34,452 nucleotides of DNA, taken from the NCBI GenBank assembly GCA_001275005.1, contig JWZX01001759.1:1-34452 (forward strand), read 5' to 3'. A program made the translations under genes and the position numbers. The notes beneath the pieces are model-generated. The model was not told the DNA's origin. It saw only the letters and a program-made list of their open reading frames with translations, and did no database searches. Origin of the DNA: Chrysochromulina tobinii. Lineage: Eukaryota. Below, piece by piece: positions 1,008 through 20,172 of the stretch. How positions within the stretch are numbered: position 1 is the stretch's first letter; the number at the start of each line of letters is the position of its first letter.

Positions 1008-3201
1008 ATGCCTCGCCCGATTTTTACTCCCGAGTACAAATGGGATACCCGGCGTCTGTCCGCACCCGTAGTGATGCCCGACGTTCACGTTCAATCTTCG
1101 CCGCCGCCGCAATCCAAACTCACGCCGGCACAAGCACGCTCAAAGCGCATCCTCGAGTCCTCGAGGCGACGCATGCCTGACAGTTCACTCGCCCCTCCCG
1201 TAGTCATGCCCGACGCGAATGTAGCCCAAGGCGTGTCGGCGAGACGGCTTCAGATGCAGAATGCCAGGGCAGCCCTCAAGGCAGTCGCGCAGCAAGACAA
1301 GGCCAAGGCCGAGAGTGAGGGTGCTACCGCGGGTTTTGCGGTAAGGAGTGACGCTGCTGCAAAGGAGGAGGAGATGCGGAAGGCCAAACAGGCCAAAGAG
1401 GAGCAAGCGAAGCGTGGGCGTGAGGAGGCTGCCGCCGCGCAAGCTGCGGGCAGGGTTGGCGCGGCCCAAAAGGCCGAGGAGGCGGCGCGAGCAAAGGAGG
1501 CTGCACGAGCAGGCGGCGCGGAGCAGGCGGCGCTCGAGCAGGAGCGGGCGCAGAAGCTCAAATCGGCCAACGCGAGCTTCGAGGCCGGGAGGCTTATGGT
1601 TAAGAAGGTAAAGTATCGGGAGGCGGAGGCGGCGTTCCGGACTGCGCTGCAGATCAGGTCAGAGGTGCTCGGTAAGCGCCACGAAGAGGTGCTCAAGGTT
1701 CAAACGGAGCTCGGCGAGGTGTGCATACGCCAAGACAACCACGTCGAGGCAGCGCGCCTCCTCCACGAGGTCTATGAGAGCTATCTAGCGGCCAAGGGCC
1801 AGGCGGATGTGATGACCCTCAAAGTGGTCCATTTGCTGGGCAACGCGCTCTCCGCCAGTGCGCGCTACGAGGAAGCCGAGACGCTCTTGAAGCTCACCAT
1901 CGACGCGTGCTCCTTGCAGTACGGCCCGAGTGCCAAGAATACGCTCGTTTTCAAGACGGGGCTCGGCTTGCTCTTTGACAAGCAGGATCGCCTCGAGGAC
2001 GCAGAGCCCTTGTTGCGTGAGGCTCTGGCGGCGCGCCGGAGGGCAGCCTTGGTGGCCGTTGTGAGCGGCACGCATGATGTGAACGACCTGTGCGCCTCGA
2101 TGGGCAGCCTCGCCGTGGTGCTCCAGAAAAGGAAGCAGCCTGGACCGCTCGCTGAGGCGGAGGCGCTCTATCGAGAGGCGCTCGAGCTCACGCGCAAGCA
2201 CGACGAGGGAAAGGAGAGTCGCACTTCCATTGGATTGATGAATAACTTGGCAGCGCTCCTCAAGCCCGAAGCGAGCCGCTCGGACGAGGTTGAGCAGCTC
2301 TTGCGGCAATGCATCAAGGCCGAGAAGGAGCTCTATGGACCGTCGAACGACGCGACTCTGAACACCACCGAGCAGCTCGCTTCGCTCCTGCATCACACCC
2401 GAGGCTTACACGCCCAGGCCGAGGAGCTGCTGCGCGACGTGCTTCAGGAACGTCGAGCCGCGCTCGGCCTGATGACCTCTGATGACCTCTGATGACGTCT
2501 GATGACGTCTGATGACATCTGATTGCCTCCCTCATCAGGAACGTCGAGCCGCGCTCGGCCTGATGACCTCTGATGACCTCTGATGACATCTGATGACGTC
2601 TGATTGCCTCCCTCATCAGGAACGTCGAGCCGCGCTCGGCCTGGGTCATGAGAGCACGATCACGACGATGGTGAACCTGGCGTCTGTCTTCCGTGCCATG
2701 GGCCAAACTCCGCAATCGGAAGCGCTGCTCAAGGAGGCGCACGAGGCAAGCCTAAAGGCGCTCGGCGCGGGGCATTACAAGACCAAGCTGATCGAAAGGG
2801 ACTTGACGGGCTTGGGCGCTGTTCCAAAAGGTACAGGAGGCTCCTTCGTGGCCAAAGGGTTCGACATGACGATTAAGACGCTCGGCGTGGCCTCGGGCTG
2901 GCAGGAACTCTTCGATAACTTCGACAATTCGGACGCGGGCCTGGAGGAGGCGTTTGCCAAGGTGGACACGGACACGAGCGGCAAGATCGACGCCAAAGAG
3001 TTGAAGGCGTACATCCAGAGCAAGTACAAGTCGAATGGCCTTGACGACAAGACCATCGAAATAATGATGGCGGCGGCGGACACGAACAAAGACGGCGAGA
3101 TTGACCTCGATGAGTTCAAGATGATCATGCGCGCTGGGGCTGGGCCAGGGGCTGGGCCAAGCGTGGAGACAGAAGAGGAGAGCTTCCGAGGCGGTTTGTA
3201 G
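1008..3201 (+). CDS. TPR-repeat (kinesin light chain/nephrocystin-3-like) protein with C-terminal EF-hand pair; exons 1008-2447, 2620-3201
   Basis: Repeats such as KYREAEAAFRTALQIRSEVLGKRH and LAEAEALYREAL; EF loops DTDTSGKIDAKE and DTNKDGEIDLDE; removing 2448-2619 joins the two ORFs in frame (DVLQ|ERRAALGLGHES). Start codon uncertain. Confidence 0.85.
2448..2619 (+). other. Repeat-family intron #1 (two tandem modules; apparent GA-AG)
   Basis: 24-nt copy of downstream exon start + 6 decamer units + CCTCATCAG, then the same again with 5 units; excision restores the frame. Confidence 0.85.
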
Positions 3202-3610
3202 GCGCGAGCGGCGAGGCGCCGGCCATGGTTGGTACCCAGCGTACGCACCAGCGCCCTGCCCGGGTCAGTGTGTGTCCACACCGCACTCCGCACACGACTA
3301 ACGCACAACCTTATTGCTTATAGGATTTTTATCGGCCGGGGATCGTGCTAACTGCTATGCTCGACTTATCGTTAGAAAAATGTCGTTTCTCTGGGATGCA
3401 TCTTTGTACACTTCTGATTCTTAAGAATCGGGTTGTTGAACCGGACGGGACTCGGGAGCGCGACCGAGCTCCTCCAGCGGTAGACAGCGGGTGTTCCCGC
3501 ACCCTTTTCGGAAATAAGGCTGAAAATGAGACCGGGCTTCAAGTTTCTAAAGAAGACGTTTCGTGGCGGCATCGCGTCGTCAAGAGCTCCAAGTCAGGTC
3601 AAGGTTTGGC

Positions 3611-6170: not shown

Positions 6171-7784
6171 TCACGCGAGGGTTGGCGCCGGCTGTGGCCG
6201 CATCAGCGACGATGGCAGCGGCGGCAGTGGCAGCTCTCGCGACCACTCGAGGGCAGCCTCGACCTTGGGCGCACTCACGTTATAAACCGGGTTGACGAAT
6301 CCCAAAGCCGTCTTCCAGTGGGCTGGGCTGGTCGCGGGGCGTGTGCCCGCGGTGGCAGGATCGGGCTCTGGCTCTGCCGCCGCCACGGCGAGCCCCGAGA
6401 GGCAGTAGCACGTGTGATAGTAGTCGCGGCTGCGAGGCACAGTGGTCGATCAGAGGAGCATCGGGTGAGAGCGGCAGGCTGTGGGGAGCATCGGGTGGGA
6501 GCGGGCAGGCTGTGGGCGGCAGGCAGTGGGCAGAGGGGCAGCTTTGGGATTCGTCAACGGCAGGCTGTGGGCGGCAGGCAGTGGGCAGAGGGGCAGCCGA
6601 GTTGCAGCCGGGGTCAGAGGGCAACCGAGCTCCAAGGCCAAGAGGTTTGAGGGGTCGAGAGAGCGAGCGGCGCACCCACGGCCGGGCTTGTCACGCAGCC
6701 CCCCATTCGACTGCTGGCAGCAGACGAACAGATAGTCGAGCAAGCCATCTGTGGAGAAGAGCGAAGCGATCCCTCCAGAGGGAAGCTCGGCGGTGCGTGT
6801 GAGCGCCGCCTCGAGCAACGGGAATGCACCGCCTTGCCAGAAGGAGTAGCACCCGTCGACGAGCTTGTTTGTGCGGCCTTGGAAGCCGCCGTGCACGCCC
6901 ATCTGCCGCTCGACCAGCCAGCGGGTCAGCGGTGGCACCCGAAGGAGCTCGACACGGTCGAGGAGCACCATGGACGCGAGGCCGCAAAAGGTATAGCCGC
7001 CGTGCGCCTCCTCGCCAGGCGTCGCGCCGATCCCGCCCTCATAAGTTTGACATGACGCGATCCACTCCGCGGCACCACGGCGGAGCTCGTCGTCGAGCAG
7101 GTTGGTCAACGATGCCACCGCCAGCGCGGTATAGACGCCGCGCACGTCGCACTCACCGTCGTCGTGCATGCTGAAGCTGCCGTCGGGCCTTTTCATGCGC
7201 CGCAGGAAGACGCGTAGCGACGCGCGGTCGATGGCGGCAAGTGCGGCGGGCGTGCCAATCGTCACCAGCGTGTTGATCGCAGCGTACGTGGGTGCCAGGT
7301 GCGCAATCTGGCCCGGATGCGCCCCCCCGGCGAAGCCACCAGTGCCGGGCACCTGGCAGCGCCTGAGGAAGCCGACGACATTGTCGGCCTCGTCGCCTCG
7401 CAGCGCGTGGCTCGGCCCGAGGAGCTCGAGCGAATGGGAGATCCAGTAGGTGAGCCACGGACGCGATGCGTCGAGGCTCACGTAGCCGGCCGCAAGCGAG
7501 CCGAGCCCGGCTTTTAGGTATGCGGCGTGTTCAGTTCGGCAGAAGGATACGCTGCGATCGCGTGCGCACGTAAGGCAGGTCGTCAGAAGCGGGATGGGAC
7601 GGCATGCGCATGGCTCATTATCGTTCACTCTCTGCCGGGAGGCGCACGATTCACGGCTGAGGCTGCCGTCCGGATTGATCCATTCTTCAAAGACCGCGCG
7701 GCATGCATCCTCGGTCTTGAGCTGCTCATTCGTCGAGTGCGTGGGCAGGCCGTCGTCGTACGTCGACTCCCAGAAGGTCGCCAT
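6171..7784 (-). CDS. FNTB: Protein farnesyltransferase beta subunit; exons 7784-7648 (first intron tentative), 7551-6676, 6429-6171
   Basis: LDASRPWLTYW, AHLAPTYAA, EAHGGYTFCG, FQGRTNKLVDGCYSFWQ; splicing 6430-6675 gives DKPGRG|RDYYHTCYCLSGL. Confidence 0.93.
6430..6675 (-). other. GT-AG intron with internal tandem duplications and an inverted exon-derived insert
   Basis: GG|GTGCGC...CTCGCAG|C; 39-nt direct repeat 6504-6542/6559-6597; 6541-6558 is the exact reverse complement of exon 6291-6308. Confidence 0.85.
7552..7647 (-). other. Probable in-frame GT-AG intron (96 nt) in FNTB
   Basis: TC|GTGCGC...CTGAC...ATCGCAG|C; contains no stop, so not required by the frame. Confidence 0.5.
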
Positions 7785-10991: not shown

Positions 10992-12273
10992 TCACACGTT
11001 CTGCGCACCCGCCTCCGCGGCCGCCTCCGGCTTCTTCGTCCTCCGCGTGAACGAGAGCGAGCGCGCCATCTTGCCGAGAGTGCCCTCAGCGGCAGGCTCA
11101 CTCGCGGCCGGCGGGGCGGCGTCGGACGCCCGCGGCGTGCTGCTCTCCTTCTTCTGGTTGCGCTTCGTGAATGAGAGCGAGCGCGCCATCTTGCCCATTT
11201 GGCCCATAATCGAGCTCTCCTTCTGCCTCTTACGCTCTTCTGCCTTACTCTTCTTCTTGCGGTAGATCATGTGCCTGGCACCGCTCTGGATCTTAGTGGC
11301 AGCCCACTGTCTCAGGTTATCCTTCTTCAGCTTGAGCTCCGCCTGCGCCTGGCGGCGTCGAACCGCCGCCTGCAGCATGAGGGATGCGCCGCGCTCCTCA
11401 TGGAACTGGCCACGTGCCTTGTACGCGCGGAAACACTTTTGGATCCTGGTGGCCGCACGATTCTTCGCGCGCAACTCCTTCTTGAGTCTGTTCTCCTCGG
11501 TGGGGATCGCCTCAGCGACGCTCTCGAAAACGCTCTTCGCGCGCGCCGAGAGCTGGCCGAAGTTCTGCTCCGCCCCTTGCATGAAGTTCGCAAAGCCCGC
11601 AGCAATGTTGAGACCGCCTGGAGGAGGCGTGGGTGCGGGTGCGCTGCTGCTAGGGGCTCCGGGCCCGTTGATGACCTTCAGGCCCGTCAGCAGTGGCCCG
11701 GGTGCGCCTGCACCTGGGCCGCGTGGCGTCGCCGCGTCCGTGCGCGGCGTCGCCTGCGGCGCCTGTCCCGGCTGAGCAGCCTCGATGGCCTTGCGCGCGT
11801 TCTCGGCCTCGATCTGCGCATACTCCTCGTACTTCGCATCGAAGTCAGCGCGCTTCGGTAGCTTCTTAATTTTCAAGTAGCCCTCCGATTCGCGCAGCAG
11901 CCGCGCAGCATGCAGCGGGCCCTGGACGTCTTGGCCCTGCACTGACATGATGCGCTCGCCGACAAACAGCTTGCCGACGGCCGGGCCCGTGGCGCCGAGC
12001 CGGCTGATGATGGCCGCTTCCGGCACGCCGCCCTCCTGCGGATCGCGTCGGTAGAATGTCACGCCCAGCTTACTGTCTTTGGACTCCTTGTACAGGATGA
12101 CCTCCTGGGCCTGCGGAGGACGCGGCGGCGGGCGAGGGCGGTGAGGAGCACGGAGACCAAGAGCGCGCCGCGTCGCAGGGGCCAAGGATGCAACATCCGA
12201 TCGGCGTGGCACATGCGAAGAGGCGTGGCTCGCGGCATCGCACCTGCGCCAGCTGCGCGCCAATGCCAAACAT
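10992..12273 (-). CDS. PDZ-domain + IQ-motif protein; exons 12273-12244, 12110-10992
   Basis: PDZ-like KDSKLGVTF...IISRL...GKLFVGERIMSVQGQ; IQ motifs AATRIQKCFRAY, LQAAVRR, AATKIQSGAR; CAG|GTGCG...CCGCAG intron gives MFGIGAQLAQ|AQEVILYK. Confidence 0.75.
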
Positions 12274-15301: not shown

Positions 15302-18300
15302 TCACCTCATCCGCACCGCGGGGAAACGCAGCAGGGACTCGGAGGCAGCTGAGTCGCGATCCGAGCCGCGGCTCGAGTCCGAATCACAAGATAGGCGCGA
15401 CGAGCGCAGAGAGTGCAGCGAGTCGCGGATCGAGTGACGAAGCGAGGTGCGGATCTCCGGCGACGAGTACTCGAGCGTAAGCGCCTCGAACTGCTCGTTC
15501 ATCTCGACCGAGAGCGGCTTGCGCAGCGGTGAGAGCACGGGTGCCTCGAGGGTGTACTTGGTGTCGAAGTTGGACACGTCGCTCGTCGGGTCGGCGGCAT
15601 TCAGCGTGGGCACAAACGGCGCCTCAAGCTTCCCGAGCATCAGCAGCTTCCAGTTCAGGTTGCGGAAAAAGGGGTGTGTCTTGAGGGAGGCAAAGTCGGA
15701 CTGACACGTGGGCGACTCTTCTCGGACACCGAGCCGCTGGGCGGGGTCCTTGGTGAGAAGCCCTTTGATGAGCCCCTTGGCCTCATTCGTGAACCAAGAG
15801 GGCAGCCGCAGCTTCGTGTGCACGATCTTGCGCTGCAGCTCCTTCTGCTCCTTGTGCCACCACGGCGCCTCGCCCGTCATCATCTCGTAGAGCAGCACAC
15901 CTGATGAGGGAGGCAATCAGAGGTCATCAGAGGTCATCACACCTGATGAGGCGTCATCAGCTCGTAGAGCAGCACACACCGAGCGACCACACGTCTCATC
16001 AGAGGTCATCAGAGGTCATCAGAGGTCATCAGAGGTCATCAGAGGTCATCAGCACACACCGAGCGACCACACGTCCACCGCCTGGCCACAAAGCATGCGC
16101 CGCAGCACCTCGGGCGCCATGTACTCGGTCGTGCCAACCAGCACAGGCCGGCCTGAGGCGGACGTGTGCGTGGCGGAAGCGGTCAGCCCAACGGCTGCGA
16201 GCCCGAAGTCACAGAGCTTCGCGTTCCCGTCGGCGCAGATGAGCACATTCTCCGGCTTGAGGTCGCGGTAGATGATGCTCTGCGCATGCAAGTGCTCGAG
16301 CGCGAGCATCACCTGCCAAATGAGGGAGGTCATTAGGGAGGTCATTAGGGAGGTCATTAGGGAGGTCATTAGGGGGGGTCATTAGGGTAGCCATGAGGGT
16401 GCTCGAGCGTCGTGACGATCACCTCGGCGGCATAGAAGCGCGCCATCTTCTCCGAGAACATCTCATGCGCCCTCAGGTGCGCGAAGAGCATGCCGCCCGG
16501 CACGTACTCCATCACGAAGTGCAGCTTGGACGCGCTCTGGAAGGCACATTCGAGCCCGAGGATGAACGGGTGGCGCGCCTCGGCATGCTGGCGCAGGATG
16601 CTCAGCTCGATCGCAATATTCTCCATCGAACGATAGCGCTCAATGGACGCCTTATCGACCACCTTCATCGCATAGATCTGGTGGTTGAGGTGGCAGCGTA
16701 CTTGGAAGACCTTGCCGTAGCCTCCCTTGCCCACGAGCCGCAGTAGCACAAAGTCGTCCATGGAGAGCGTGCGCATGCTTGCCGTCTCCGCCAGCTCGAG
16801 CTCCTCCACGAGCGCGTCCACCGCCTCCGCCGCCGCCGCCGCCGCCACACGTGCCAAAAAGTCCCCATCGAGCGGCGACGCGAGGTGCTCACCATGGCGC
16901 TCGTTGGCGTCGCTCCTTACGCTGCCCGCCGCCGCCTCCTCCGCCGCCTCCGCCGCCTCCGCCTCCTCCGCCTCCTCCGCCTCCTCCGGCGCCGAGATCG
17001 ACCGCAGCAGCGCGGCGAGGGCCGCCGTGAGCTCTGCCGCTGCCGCTGCGGCATGCGCCCCATCGTACCGCGGCAACTCGCCGCTGATCAGCGAGCGACT
17101 CGACGGCGGCACGATGATCTTGAGCACGACGGGGGGGCTCGGCGGCGTCGTTGCGGGCGGCGTCGTCGCCGCGCTCGCGCCGGCGTCGTTCTCGTCAGGC
17201 ATCATCGAAGTGTCTGGATCGGCCAGATTGAGCGTCGTCGCGGGCGTCGTCGTCGTGGGCGCCGCAGTGCCCGTCGGCACCGCAAGCTCGTCTGTGACCG
17301 TGGCGCTGAGTGGTGGGCGCAGGCCGGTGGCAGCAGCAGCGGACGTTGAGGCGCCGACGGCGGGCGCGCTGCGCTGGGCACCTGGTGGCGGAGCGCCGTG
17401 CTGGGCGGCGGGAGGCAGCTTCATCGAGTGTGGGAAGTTGTGCGGCGGAGAGTGCCGAGGGTGAGGGGTGTCAGGACCGTGCAACGGCTCCCTGATCTCG
17501 TCTTCGATATCATCGTGTAAGGGCTCCCTGATCTCATCGTCGTGCGCCGCCTCGATCGACATATGCACCGGATCCGATGCTGCCCACGACGGCGCGGCCG
17601 CGCTGCCGGCCGCTGCCCACGACGGCGCCATGGGAGCCGCGACGGCGCCAGTGCCGGTGGATGCTGCAGCAGGGGTGGGTGGTGTGACCGAGGAGGAGGT
17701 CGAAGAGGCGGGCGTGGGTGTGGCCGAGGAGGCGAGGAAGGAGGAGGCCGAGGAGGAGGTGGAGATGGCTGTAGTGCTCGACGCGGCGCTCATGCGCAGC
17801 ATCGAGGAGACGGAGGCTGCCTCGAGCCCCCCGCTACCCGCCTTGGCCCCCGGCGAGAGAGGGCCGCTGCTCGCTGTGGGCGGCGGCCGGCTATGTAGAA
17901 GCGATCCATGGCTAAGGGTGGCGGGGAGGGCATCGAGGTGACGCAGCTCTCCCAATGCGGTGGCAGCCGCGCTGCTCTGCTGCTTGATCTTCTGTGCCGA
18001 GGACTTGAACTGATACAGCCGATCCAGCATTGCCTGGCCCTCATCCGCCGATGCGCCCGCGACGGCGCCGGCGCCGCGTCCGCCGCCGCCGCCGCTGGCG
18101 CCCACGCCGGCGCCGGCGCGTCCCCCCCAGGCCCCCGCAGGGGGCTGCTTGCGCCACGTGGCGTCGGGCGACGCGCCGGCGGCACTGGCGCCGAGGCTGC
18201 TCCCCCACGCGCTCGGCTTGGGCGTGGACGTGCTGAGTGGGTGCGCCTCCTCCTCCTCGCGCGATTCGCGCGGCGCCACGTGTACGGTCTCGACCGTTGG

Positions 18301-20172
18301 TGCCCGCCACGGCGCGTGCATGGCCGAGGCGGCCGCGGAGGCCGAGGCGGCCGCGGAGGCCGCGGAGGCCTGCGGTGCGCCCGGCTCGGCGGGCATCGTC
18401 AAATCCGCCTCCTCCCACGAGGCCACGGAGACGGTCGACATGCGGTTGCTCGGTCGGCCTGATGGGCGGGCCGAGGGCTGCAGCGAGCGAGCGTCCGGCG
18501 CCGTCGTGGGCACCGGCGCGGCGGACGGAGCGGCTGAAAGAGGCGGCGCGGGGGGCGCAGGTGGAGCTGGTGGCGCAGATGGAGCTGGTGGCGAAGGCGG
18601 AGCTGGCGGCGGTGGAGCTGGCGGCGGTGGAGCTGGCGGCGGTGGAGGCGGAGGAGCGGCGGAGGGCGGGCCGTCGGCGCCAGCTGCGGCTGCGGAGGCG
18701 GCTGCGGAGGCGGCTGCGGGGGCAGCTGCGGAGGCGTCTGCGGGGGCAGCTGCGGAGGCGTCTGCGGGGGGCCATCGCCCCTCGTCATCACGAGCCATCT
18801 GGCGCTGCAGCGTGGCCAGCTCGTACTCGAGCTGCGGAATCGAGAGCACCTGATGAGGGAAGCCATCGGAGGTCATCAGTGAGGCAATCAGAGGCAATCA
18901 GCTCATACTCGAGCTGTGGAACTGAGAGCACCTTGGCCTGTAGGGCCTCGGTCAATCAGAGGCAATCACATGCAATCAGAGGCAATCACATGCAATCATA
19001 GGCAATCAGCGGTCATCAGTGAGGTAATCAGAGACCATCAGAGGCCATCAGAGGCCATCAGAGGCCATCAGAGGCCATCAGTACCTTGGCCTGTTGGGCT
19101 TCGTTGAGAGGTTTGCCATCAGCGTGCTCCTGCTGCACCGCGAGGGCCTGCCGGAGCTTCTTGAGGATCGCTCGCTCGCGCTTCTCCGCCTCGCTCTTGG
19201 CACTGCTCGTGGCCTCGGCGGCCGGGGTGCCCGCTAGCTCGTACGAAACTGCCGCCTCGGCCATCGGCTGAGTCTCGGCAGACAGCGCGCCCTGCGCCTC
19301 TGCGGCCGCCTCTGCGGCCGCCCCTGCGGCCGCCTCGGCTGCCTCGGCCGCCTCCGCCGCCTCGGCCGCCTCCATCCTGGCTCGTAGCGCCGCCTTCTTC
19401 CTCTCCCGCGCGGCCGCCTTCGCAGCGGCCGCCTCATCGGCGCTCGCCTCGGCGCTCGTCACGGCGCTCGCCGCACTGCTCAGCACGGCGCTCGACTCGG
19501 CGCTCAGAACGGCGCTCGCATCGGCGCTCAGCACGGCGCTCGCCTCGGCGCTCAGCACGAGTTTAGTCACGGCGCTCGTCTCGCTGGCCGTGGCACGGCC
19601 CTCAGAAGATGGCGTGACAGCCCCCCCAGCTGCCCCGACGGGCAGTGCCGTGTCAGTGGCCTCGGCCGATGGTGGCGCCGCGGCCGCGGGCGGCGGCGTG
19701 GCCGCGGCCTTGGCGGCGGCCACGTCCTCAGCGGCCGCCTGCGCGGCCTCCAACTGCGCCTCCGCCGCCGCACGCTCCTCCTTGAGCTCTGCCTCGCTCG
19801 CAAGCTTCTGCAGCTGCTCCGCGGTGAGGGTCTTGGCCTCGAGGCTGCGTGGCGAGAGGCACATCGACCCGGAGGGCGTGAGTGGCATCCACTGGAACTC
19901 GCGATGGGCAGCTCCAGGCGGCAGCATGTGCGTTGCGGCGGCAGTGCTGACCTTCGGATTTCCTCAATCTGACGCAGCTTCTTCGTGAGCGCACGGATGC
20001 GCTTGTTCAGGGCTGTTACGGGATCGTCGATGGACTGCGCGAGACACAGCCGCGCTCTCAGGTCAGCAGCGGGAAGAGCGGACACGGTGCTGAGCATGAT
20101 GGGTACGTCGCGCGGGTCTGTGCAGCTCGTTTCACGCACCACCACAGCCGTGGATGGCCCCTCGGTTGCCAT
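15302..20172 (-). CDS. S6K-like AGC kinase with a long N-terminal extension (~1419 aa); exons 20172-19952, 19844-19085, 18849-16423, 16312-16060, 15900-15302
   Basis: [54 protein letters not shown] tail APFVP...DVSNFD; four GT-AG introns give one continuous frame (4260 nt). Confidence 0.85.
15901..16059 (-). other. Repeat-family intron #2
   Basis: G|GTGTGTGCTGATGACCTC...TGATTGCCTCCCTCATCAG|GTGTG; internal junction copy 15952-15995. Confidence 0.88.
16313..16422 (-). other. Repeat-family intron #3 (12-mer CCCTAATGACCT variant)
   Basis: GAG|GTGATCGTCACGACGCTCGAGCAC...(CCCTAATGACCT)n CCCTCATTTGGCAG|GTGATGCTCGCGCTCGAGCAC. Confidence 0.88.
18850..19084 (-). other. Repeat-family intron #4
   Basis: AAG|GTACTGATGGCCTC...CCCTCATCAG|GTGCTC; internal junction copy 18899-18950. 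Confidence 0.88.
19845..19951 (-). other. Ordinary GT-AG intron
   Basis: AG|GTCAGC...CCACGCAG|C joins [13 protein letters not shown] in frame. Confidence 0.75.

What the first reader, a model, noticed from the sequence alone, without database searches (positions are those of the whole stretch)
2444..2643. Apparently youngest insertion: perfect triple copy of the exon start, two stacked modules and a GA donor
Seen: GAACGTCGAGCCGCGCTCGGCCTG occurs identically at 2448, 2539 and 2620, each preceded by TCAG. The copies are separated by 6 and 5 decamer units plus CCTCATCAG (modules of 91 and 81 nt). Precise removal of 172 nt restores the TPR frame, and within the repeat the only AG|G register is CAG|GAACGT, a non-canonical GA-AG intron. 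Inference: the donor is whatever the duplicated exon starts with, so this spliceosome may tolerate GA donors. Removing module 1 regenerates the same donor, so recursive splicing is possible. An upstream in-frame GT (2439) would also work but would lose 3 residues.
Basis: partly seen in the sequence, partly recalled or inferred. Interest (0 to 1): 0.8.

Follow-up and report, generated by a model that had tools for sequence, protein, structure and literature searches.

The report
Stacked repeat intron with GA donor
A gene of a Chrysochromulina alga is interrupted by two back-to-back repeat-filled inserts that are likely spliced out exactly from an unusual GA start; GA starts are known in related algae, but this family of stacked repeat introns appears undescribed.

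Summary
The anatomy is as described. RNA favours the GA reading. No contig bridges the site, but contig ends fall at 2471 (4 of 6 RNA runs) and 2616 (5 of 6), where a simulation puts them for genomic plus precisely spliced RNA. None falls at 2439/2620, as the upstream GT would give. The one DNA run laid breaks at 2473/2614, as two modules predict. Relatives and the paralog keep the VLQ residues. So this is likely a 172-nt GA-AG intron in a TPR/EF-hand gene of Chrysochromulina. 'Youngest' is not supported: a 93%-identical relative has the same acceptor here, and equally perfect copies are common. Stacking is common in the family (27 of 136 loci). Donors are filtered, not arbitrary: GT 76, GC 18, GA 2 of 109. 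Recursive splicing could not be tested. GA donors are published for Emiliania and for dinoflagellate introners; the variable-duplication, stacked decamer family was not found in print. The scan noted this family before, on another piece of this genome (e1-2577349).

The parts
1173..2447 (+). Exon 1 coding part of a TPR + EF-hand protein (ends in CAG); RNA contigs begin near 960-973
   Evidence: Pfam TPR_12 E=2e-24; RNA contigs without mismatches
2439..2440 (+). Upstream in-frame GT; used by a C. parva gene model (P0031) but not supported by RNA contig ends
2448..2619 (+). 172-nt intron, likely GA-AG, donor context CAG|GAA
2448..2538 (+). Module 1 (91 nt): copy of exon-2 start, 6 decamers, family acceptor tail
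2539..2619 (+). Module 2 (81 nt): second copy, 5 decamers, acceptor tail; likely a local tandem copy of module 1; internal AG|GA junction at 2538/2539
   Evidence: 27 of 30 bases equal to module 1 upstream of the tail; better than all 21 modules of other loci
2444..2471 (+). 28-nt direct repeat, copy 1 (also at 2535-2562 and 2616-2643)
2600..2619 (+). Family hallmark: last decamer (branch-point-like CTGAT, consensus recalled) plus acceptor tail
   Evidence: 136 metagenome loci carry it exactly
2620..3201 (+). Exon 2: end of a TPR repeat and two EF-hands; RNA contigs end near 3303-3371
15901..16059 (-). Sister family intron, GT-AG, 159 nt, with internal exon copies and an internal acceptor tail
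   Evidence: bridged by RNA contigs in 4 of 4 runs; anatomy
16313..16422 (-). Sister family intron, GT-AG, 110 nt, 12-mer array, decayed copy of exon start
   Evidence: bridged in 4 of 4 runs
18850..19084 (-). Sister family intron, GT-AG, 235 nt, holding a decayed copy of the exon-exon junction
   Evidence: bridged in 2 of 4 runs

Best explanation
Positions 2448-2619 hold two back-to-back decamer-repeat modules, each starting with an exact copy of the next exon's start, and they likely form one spliceosomal GA-AG intron that is removed precisely from a TPR/EF-hand gene. Shown: the anatomy, the family membership, at least two modules in DNA reads, and RNA contig ends that fit exact removal. Inferred: (1) a cassette of decamers plus an acceptor tail entered the gene with a 21-28-nt duplication of the target, by break repair or another route that gives variable duplications; (2) the cassette supplies branch-point-like motifs and the AG, the duplication supplies the donor; (3) selection keeps mostly GT and GC starts, and this GA start survives because it sits in CAG|GAA, the context in which GA donors work elsewhere; (4) module 2 arose later as a local tandem copy, and such local copying, not a recent first insertion, keeps the three copies identical. 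Whether removal takes one step or two is open.
For: Simulation with 31-mers predicts contig ends 2471/2616 for genomic plus exact 172-nt removal, 2439/2620 for the GT, 2418/2617 for the GC and 2473/2614 for DNA alone. Observed: 2471 in X1, X12, X13, X14 and 2616 in X1, X12, X13, X14, X15 of 6 RNA runs; 2473/2614 in DNA run X2. RNA contigs start and stop near the gene's ends and two silent bins have depth 0 in 4 of 4 RNA runs. P0003 and P0048 read straight through with VLQ; the GT model needs a 3-residue gap against the paralog. Exon 2 stays open and 93-99% identical in relatives. Three sister introns are directly bridged in RNA. Family: 56 of 109 sites have an upstream copy of the exon start (control mean 1.2, max 3). 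GC starts are preceded by AG in 4 of 4 against 15 of 35 for GT (hand count, stacked sites left out; p=0.047). GA donors: 11 of 241 curated Emiliania junctions, one checked by RT-PCR (PMC4028052); AG before and A at +3 in copepod GA donors (PMC5714493).
Against: No contig spans the joint; the evidence is the position of contig ends, and k=31 is recalled (X2 fits it). The listed pieces of X15 (upstream side) and X16 (both sides) stop short and say nothing. A reverse-transcriptase jump between the 28-nt repeats would give the same product, and the fold brings the ends near each other (z=-2.3). All 29 registers give the same mRNA, so GT..AC at 2452-2623 is not excluded by RNA. Only 1 of 10 DNA holders was laid. 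No family site with a clearly obligatory GA donor was found among 109. The breaks also mean that unspliced or partly spliced RNA is present. No mobilising enzyme was sought (no genome); microhomology at junctions was inconclusive (10 sites, p=0.11). The DNA behind P0003, P0047 and P0048 was not seen.
Confidence: 0.78

Rival explanations
1. The intron is not spliced at GA; the exact 172-nt loss in RNA libraries is a reverse-transcriptase or PCR jump between the 28-nt direct repeats, and the gene is truncated or split.
For: Perfect direct repeats flank the cut; mild fold-back; libraries are labelled RT-PCR; public protein sets hold the two halves separately (P0024, P0019); unspliced forms are present.
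Against: The joined form must be frequent enough to branch the graph at depth about 7-17 in 5 runs; the DNA run shows no such branch; exon 2 completes a TPR and is conserved in frame in relatives; sister introns are spliced.
Confidence: 0.09
2. The upstream GT at 2439 (or the GC at 2418) is the working donor and the protein lacks 3 (or 10) residues.
For: Canonical dinucleotide and open frame; the C. parva model P0031 uses the GT.
Against: Would break contigs at 2439/2620 or 2418/2617, even when mixed with the GA form; seen in 0 of 6 RNA runs; leaves a gap against the paralog. Minor use below the contig filter is not excluded.
Confidence: 0.03
3. The RNA cultures carry a second haplotype without the insertion, or repeat-mediated deletion occurs in DNA; the joined form is genomic.
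For: P0003, P0048 (9314-nt contig) and P0049 are uninterrupted while P0047 of the same lineage has the insertion.
Against: DNA run X2, identical to the window in both exons, shows only the two-module pattern; those proteins may come from transcripts or collapsed assemblies.
Confidence: 0.06
4. The same 172 nt are removed in another register, GT..AC at 2452-2623.
For: Starts with GT and gives the same mRNA.
Against: The family acceptor AG lies 4 nt upstream and is used by sister introns; 241 of 241 curated Emiliania acceptors are AG.
Confidence: 0.04

Closest known systems
Dinoflagellate introner-like elements (Symbiodinium; Polarella classes 4, 5, 6, 8, 10), bioRxiv 10.1101/2020.10.14.339549 (part 1 of 4 read) and 10.1101/2022.06.06.494994 (passages)
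   Same: [quoted passage not shown]
   Different: Those have fixed 4- or 8-nt duplications and inverted ends. Here exact duplications run from 12 to 49 nt, the body is a variable decamer array, and modules stack. The Chrysochromulina introner shown in the 2022 paper has a 4-nt duplication and carries its 5' site, the reverse arrangement.
GA-AG introns of Emiliania huxleyi (PMC4028052, section and passages read) and Eurytemora affinis (PMC5714493, part 1 of 2 read)
   Same: GA donor with AG acceptor; AG before the donor and A at +3 as in the copepod; gene models fail at such sites; intron retention is common in Emiliania.
   Different: In the parts read, neither paper ties GA donors to a repeat cassette or to a duplicated exon start.
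Intron gain by tandem duplication or double-strand-break repair (review PMC3443670, passages read)
   Same: Direct repeats of exon sequence flank the intron; removal is precise.
   Different: Here the acceptor comes from a cassette shared by many loci, not from the duplicated exon or unique filler DNA.
Recursive splice sites with zero-length exons; fungal stwintrons (search listing; abstract of PMC10156609)
   Same: An internal acceptor directly followed by a regenerated donor.
   Different: Recursive sites are mostly described in long animal introns with AG|GT; stwintrons are nested. Here two complete 81-91-nt modules abut at AG|GA, and stepwise removal is untested.

Membership tests
Introner / introner-like element (DNA-transposon type) | Related copies at many unrelated loci | tested here: met
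Introner / introner-like element (DNA-transposon type) | Insert is spliced out of mRNA | tested here: met
   Direct for 3 sister introns; indirect, by contig ends, for this one
Introner / introner-like element (DNA-transposon type) | One splice site carried, the other taken from the target duplication | tested here: met
   56 of 109 sites have an upstream copy of the exon start; 50 of these 56 begin GT or GC
Introner / introner-like element (DNA-transposon type) | Short target duplication of fixed length | tested here: not met
   35 of 109 sites have exact copies of 12-49 nt with no single length
Introner / introner-like element (DNA-transposon type) | End-to-end similarity between copies | tested here: not met
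   Arrays differ in unit type and length; mean identity to other loci upstream of the tail 0.31, ungapped, 27 modules
Introner / introner-like element (DNA-transposon type) | Terminal inverted repeats | tested here: inconclusive
   8-nt inverted match between module start and end, but the same word recurs along the array
Introner / introner-like element (DNA-transposon type) | Empty site in a relative or paralog | tested here: inconclusive
   Paralog proteins and P0003/P0048/P0049 are uninterrupted, but their DNA was not seen (searches found nothing)
Introner / introner-like element (DNA-transposon type) | Autonomous partner with a transposase | not testable with these tools
   No whole genome is held
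GA-AG spliceosomal intron | mRNA joint compatible only with G..AG as GA..AG | tested here: met
   1 of 29 registers; contig ends exclude the other listed donors as main forms
GA-AG spliceosomal intron | AG before the donor and A at +3 | tested here: met
   CAG|GAA against the pattern in PMC5714493
GA-AG spliceosomal intron | Lariat with 5' end at the GA | not testable with these tools
   Only assembled contigs were available
Recursive splice site | Acceptor directly followed by a donor that is rebuilt after the first step | tested here: met
   AG|GA at 2538/2539; the two module starts share 49 bases
Recursive splice site | Splicing intermediates or lariats at the internal site | not testable with these tools
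   One-module forms add no new contig ends in the simulation

The most novel reading that the evidence does not exclude
Chrysochromulina carries an undescribed intron-making minisatellite cassette that keeps re-copying itself with the start of the next exon. The result is back-to-back 40-110-nt mini-introns with zero-length exons that are spliced recursively, here through AG|GA. Loss of the first module would hand the donor role to the exon's own first bases, so introns would regenerate in place and change donor type.
Probability: 0.2. Interest if true: 0.75.

Novelty: new variant of a known kind. Interest (0 to 1): 0.5.

Why it matters
It adds a route of intron gain that looks like introners in logic but not in footprint: variable long duplications, a repeat array as body, and frequent stacking. 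Stacked sites are ready-made tests of recursive splicing in very short introns. The GT, GC, GA ranking after one fixed acceptor is a natural assay of what this spliceosome accepts. In practice, public models mishandle the gene: it is split into two proteins or modelled with the GT that drops three residues. The GA donor alone is not surprising for a haptophyte.

Tried and rejected
No whole genome is held, so no genome-wide donor count. The hallmark was absent from viral contigs. The search for related loci with P0003 found nothing in genome contigs or viral contigs, so the relatives' DNA at this site was not seen. None of the 136 loci overlaps the window's exons in the hits listed. A direct bridging contig was sought in 6 RNA runs and not found. 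Contig depths were not used as copy number or splicing rate. That this intron breaks contigs while GT sisters are bridged is not taken as poorer GA splicing, because depth differs and a plain GT-AG intron at 12111-12243 is also retained in contigs. Microhomology test: mean overlap 1.9 against 0.67, 10 of 35 sites usable, p=0.11 for 3 or more bases, and the null is lenient: inconclusive. L023, L026 and L033 were inspected as further GA donors and set aside: the first two have an upstream GT, the third has intron-like sequence upstream. Four rows with share 0.00 were not used. Papers searched without a description of this family; term look-ups in PMC4580454, PMC2784329 and PMC12130899 gave nothing on it. 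No supplements were read; the introner tables of the 2020 and 2022 papers could list this family.

Full report
Observation. The 24-mer is exact at 2448, 2539 and 2620, each after TCAG, so the full repeat is 28 nt. Module 1 is 91 nt and module 2 is 81 nt. Removing 2448-2619 opens a 618-aa frame; the GT at 2439 gives 615 aa. The left part has TPR repeats, the right part the end of a TPR and EF-hands. The protein cluster holds a Chrysochromulina parva model at 99% identity in the C-terminal part, and the paralog cluster a C. tobinii protein, so the window is Chrysochromulina.

Is it spliced, and where? Sixteen runs hold the gene, 6 of them RNA, all as assembled contigs. I laid all 6 RNA runs and 1 of 10 DNA runs. 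No contig crosses the site, but contigs end where the sequence graph branches, so their ends are diagnostic. A 31-mer simulation gave 2473/2614 for two-module DNA alone, 2471/2616 for genomic plus exact 172-nt removal, 2439/2620 for the GT (also when mixed with the GA form), 2418/2617 for the GC, and no break for a single module (k=31 is recalled). DNA run X2 ends at 2473 and 2614. RNA contigs end at 2471 in 4 of 6 runs and start at 2616 in 5 of 6; the remaining listed pieces stop short of the site. None ends at 2439 or 2620. Of all single deletions scanned, 36 give 2471/2616: 29 are the same 172-nt product and 7 others do not end in AG. Among the 29 registers only 2448-2619 is G..AG, and it reads GA..AG. 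The RNA contigs behave as transcripts: they start near 960-973 and stop near 3303-3371, and two silent bins are empty in 4 of 4 runs. The breaks also imply that unspliced or partly spliced RNA is present.

Protein evidence. P0003 and P0048 run through the site with VLQ, and P0049 starts within it. The paralog has VLI or VLM, and the C. parva model that uses the GT needs a 3-residue gap against it. Whether P0003 and its cluster come from mRNA, an empty allele or a collapsed assembly is unknown.

The family. The window has five more arrays. After keeping last acceptors with enough flank and removing duplicates, 109 sites remained. The next two bases are GT 76, GC 18, GG 3, GA 2, other 10, against about 7%, 10%, 7% and 7% after AG in the flanks (GA depleted, p=0.013). 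56 of 109 have an upstream copy of the exon start (control 1.2), beginning GT in 42, GC in 8, GA in 1. Exact copies of 12 nt or more occur at 35 of 109 sites and run to 49 nt; some long ones may include array bases. So the duplicated start supplies the donor, but through a strong filter. The GG-starting sites inspected, L014 and L048, and the window's 26223 intron use a separate upstream GT. None of the 109 clearly needs a GA donor, which makes this site a rare case.

Stacking and age. 33 back-to-back modules occur in 27 of 136 loci (the pattern search favours such loci), including four copies with a GC start in L041 and seven in L014. Of 27 modules compared, 11 match the preceding module at 80% or more, this site among them (0.90), which points to local tandem copying; about ten look unrelated to their neighbour, which may mean fresh arrays at the same junction or just ungapped misalignment. 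'Youngest' does not hold: 16 of 109 sites have copies at least as long and exact, the 15901 intron has a perfect 26-nt repeat, and the acceptor is at the same place in relatives at 96% and 93% identity (P0030, P0047). The array already differs in a 99% relative (P0001). The perfect triple is best read as recent local copying at an older site; this is inference, since the relatives' DNA was not seen.

Mechanism. Most likely a cassette of decamers and an acceptor tail entered with a variable target duplication. The decamers resemble branch-point words (consensus recalled). The donor comes from the duplication and must be tolerated; CAG|GAA fits the rule seen for copepod GA donors and the AG preference of GC starts here (4 of 4 against 15 of 35). 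Variable lengths argue against a cut-and-paste transposase and for break repair or target-primed copying; the data do not choose between these. The internal AG|GA could support recursive splicing, but one-module forms leave no trace in 31-mers.

What is known. GA donors make up 11 of 241 curated Emiliania junctions, one confirmed by RT-PCR (PMC4028052). Dinoflagellate introner-like elements take GT, GC or GA donors from fixed 4- or 8-nt duplications, with GA commoner in recent introns (bioRxiv 10.1101/2020.10.14.339549). The 2022 introner survey shows a Chrysochromulina family of the reverse design. Ten searches did not find this family described; supplements were not read. It works like an introner but fails the fixed-duplication and end-to-end tests, so I do not file it as a DNA-transposon introner.

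Verdict. Observation confirmed; interpretation partly supported. Likely GA-AG intron (0.78) in a stacked repeat-intron family; new variant of a known kind; interest 0.5.

Noticed in passing
window 18850-19084 (-): The intron holds a decayed copy of the exon-exon junction (about 21 + 30 nt) between two arrays; three of the differences in the downstream part are CpG-type transitions, which suggests methylation-driven decay.
   Followed up: partly
window 15901-16059 (-): Three-part intron with perfect 26-nt and 17-nt copies of both flanks and an internal acceptor followed by GT; removed whole in 4 of 4 RNA runs.
   Followed up: partly
window 12111-12243 (-): A predicted plain GT-AG intron (133 nt) is retained in the main RNA contig of X1, X14 and X16.
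   Followed up: partly
   Followed up: partly
L049 and L110: The intron's copy begins GT where the exon begins GC, as if the donor had changed from GC to GT after duplication.
   Followed up: no
L014:241-830: Seven tandem copies of acceptor plus a GG-starting exon start behind a GT-donor module; a 44-nt higher-order repeat.
   Followed up: no
window 2921-3138; P0002/P0033: A paralog carries the EF-hand pair in the middle of the TPR run, whereas this gene has it at the end: domain shuffling between paralogs.
   Followed up: no
P0047 against P0003/P0048/P0049: One diverged lineage shows both interrupted and uninterrupted forms; could be splicing, intron presence/absence polymorphism or assembly collapse.
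   Followed up: partly
window 6430-6675 (-): A non-family intron with its own 30-nt internal repeats, bridged in 3 of 4 RNA runs.
   Followed up: no
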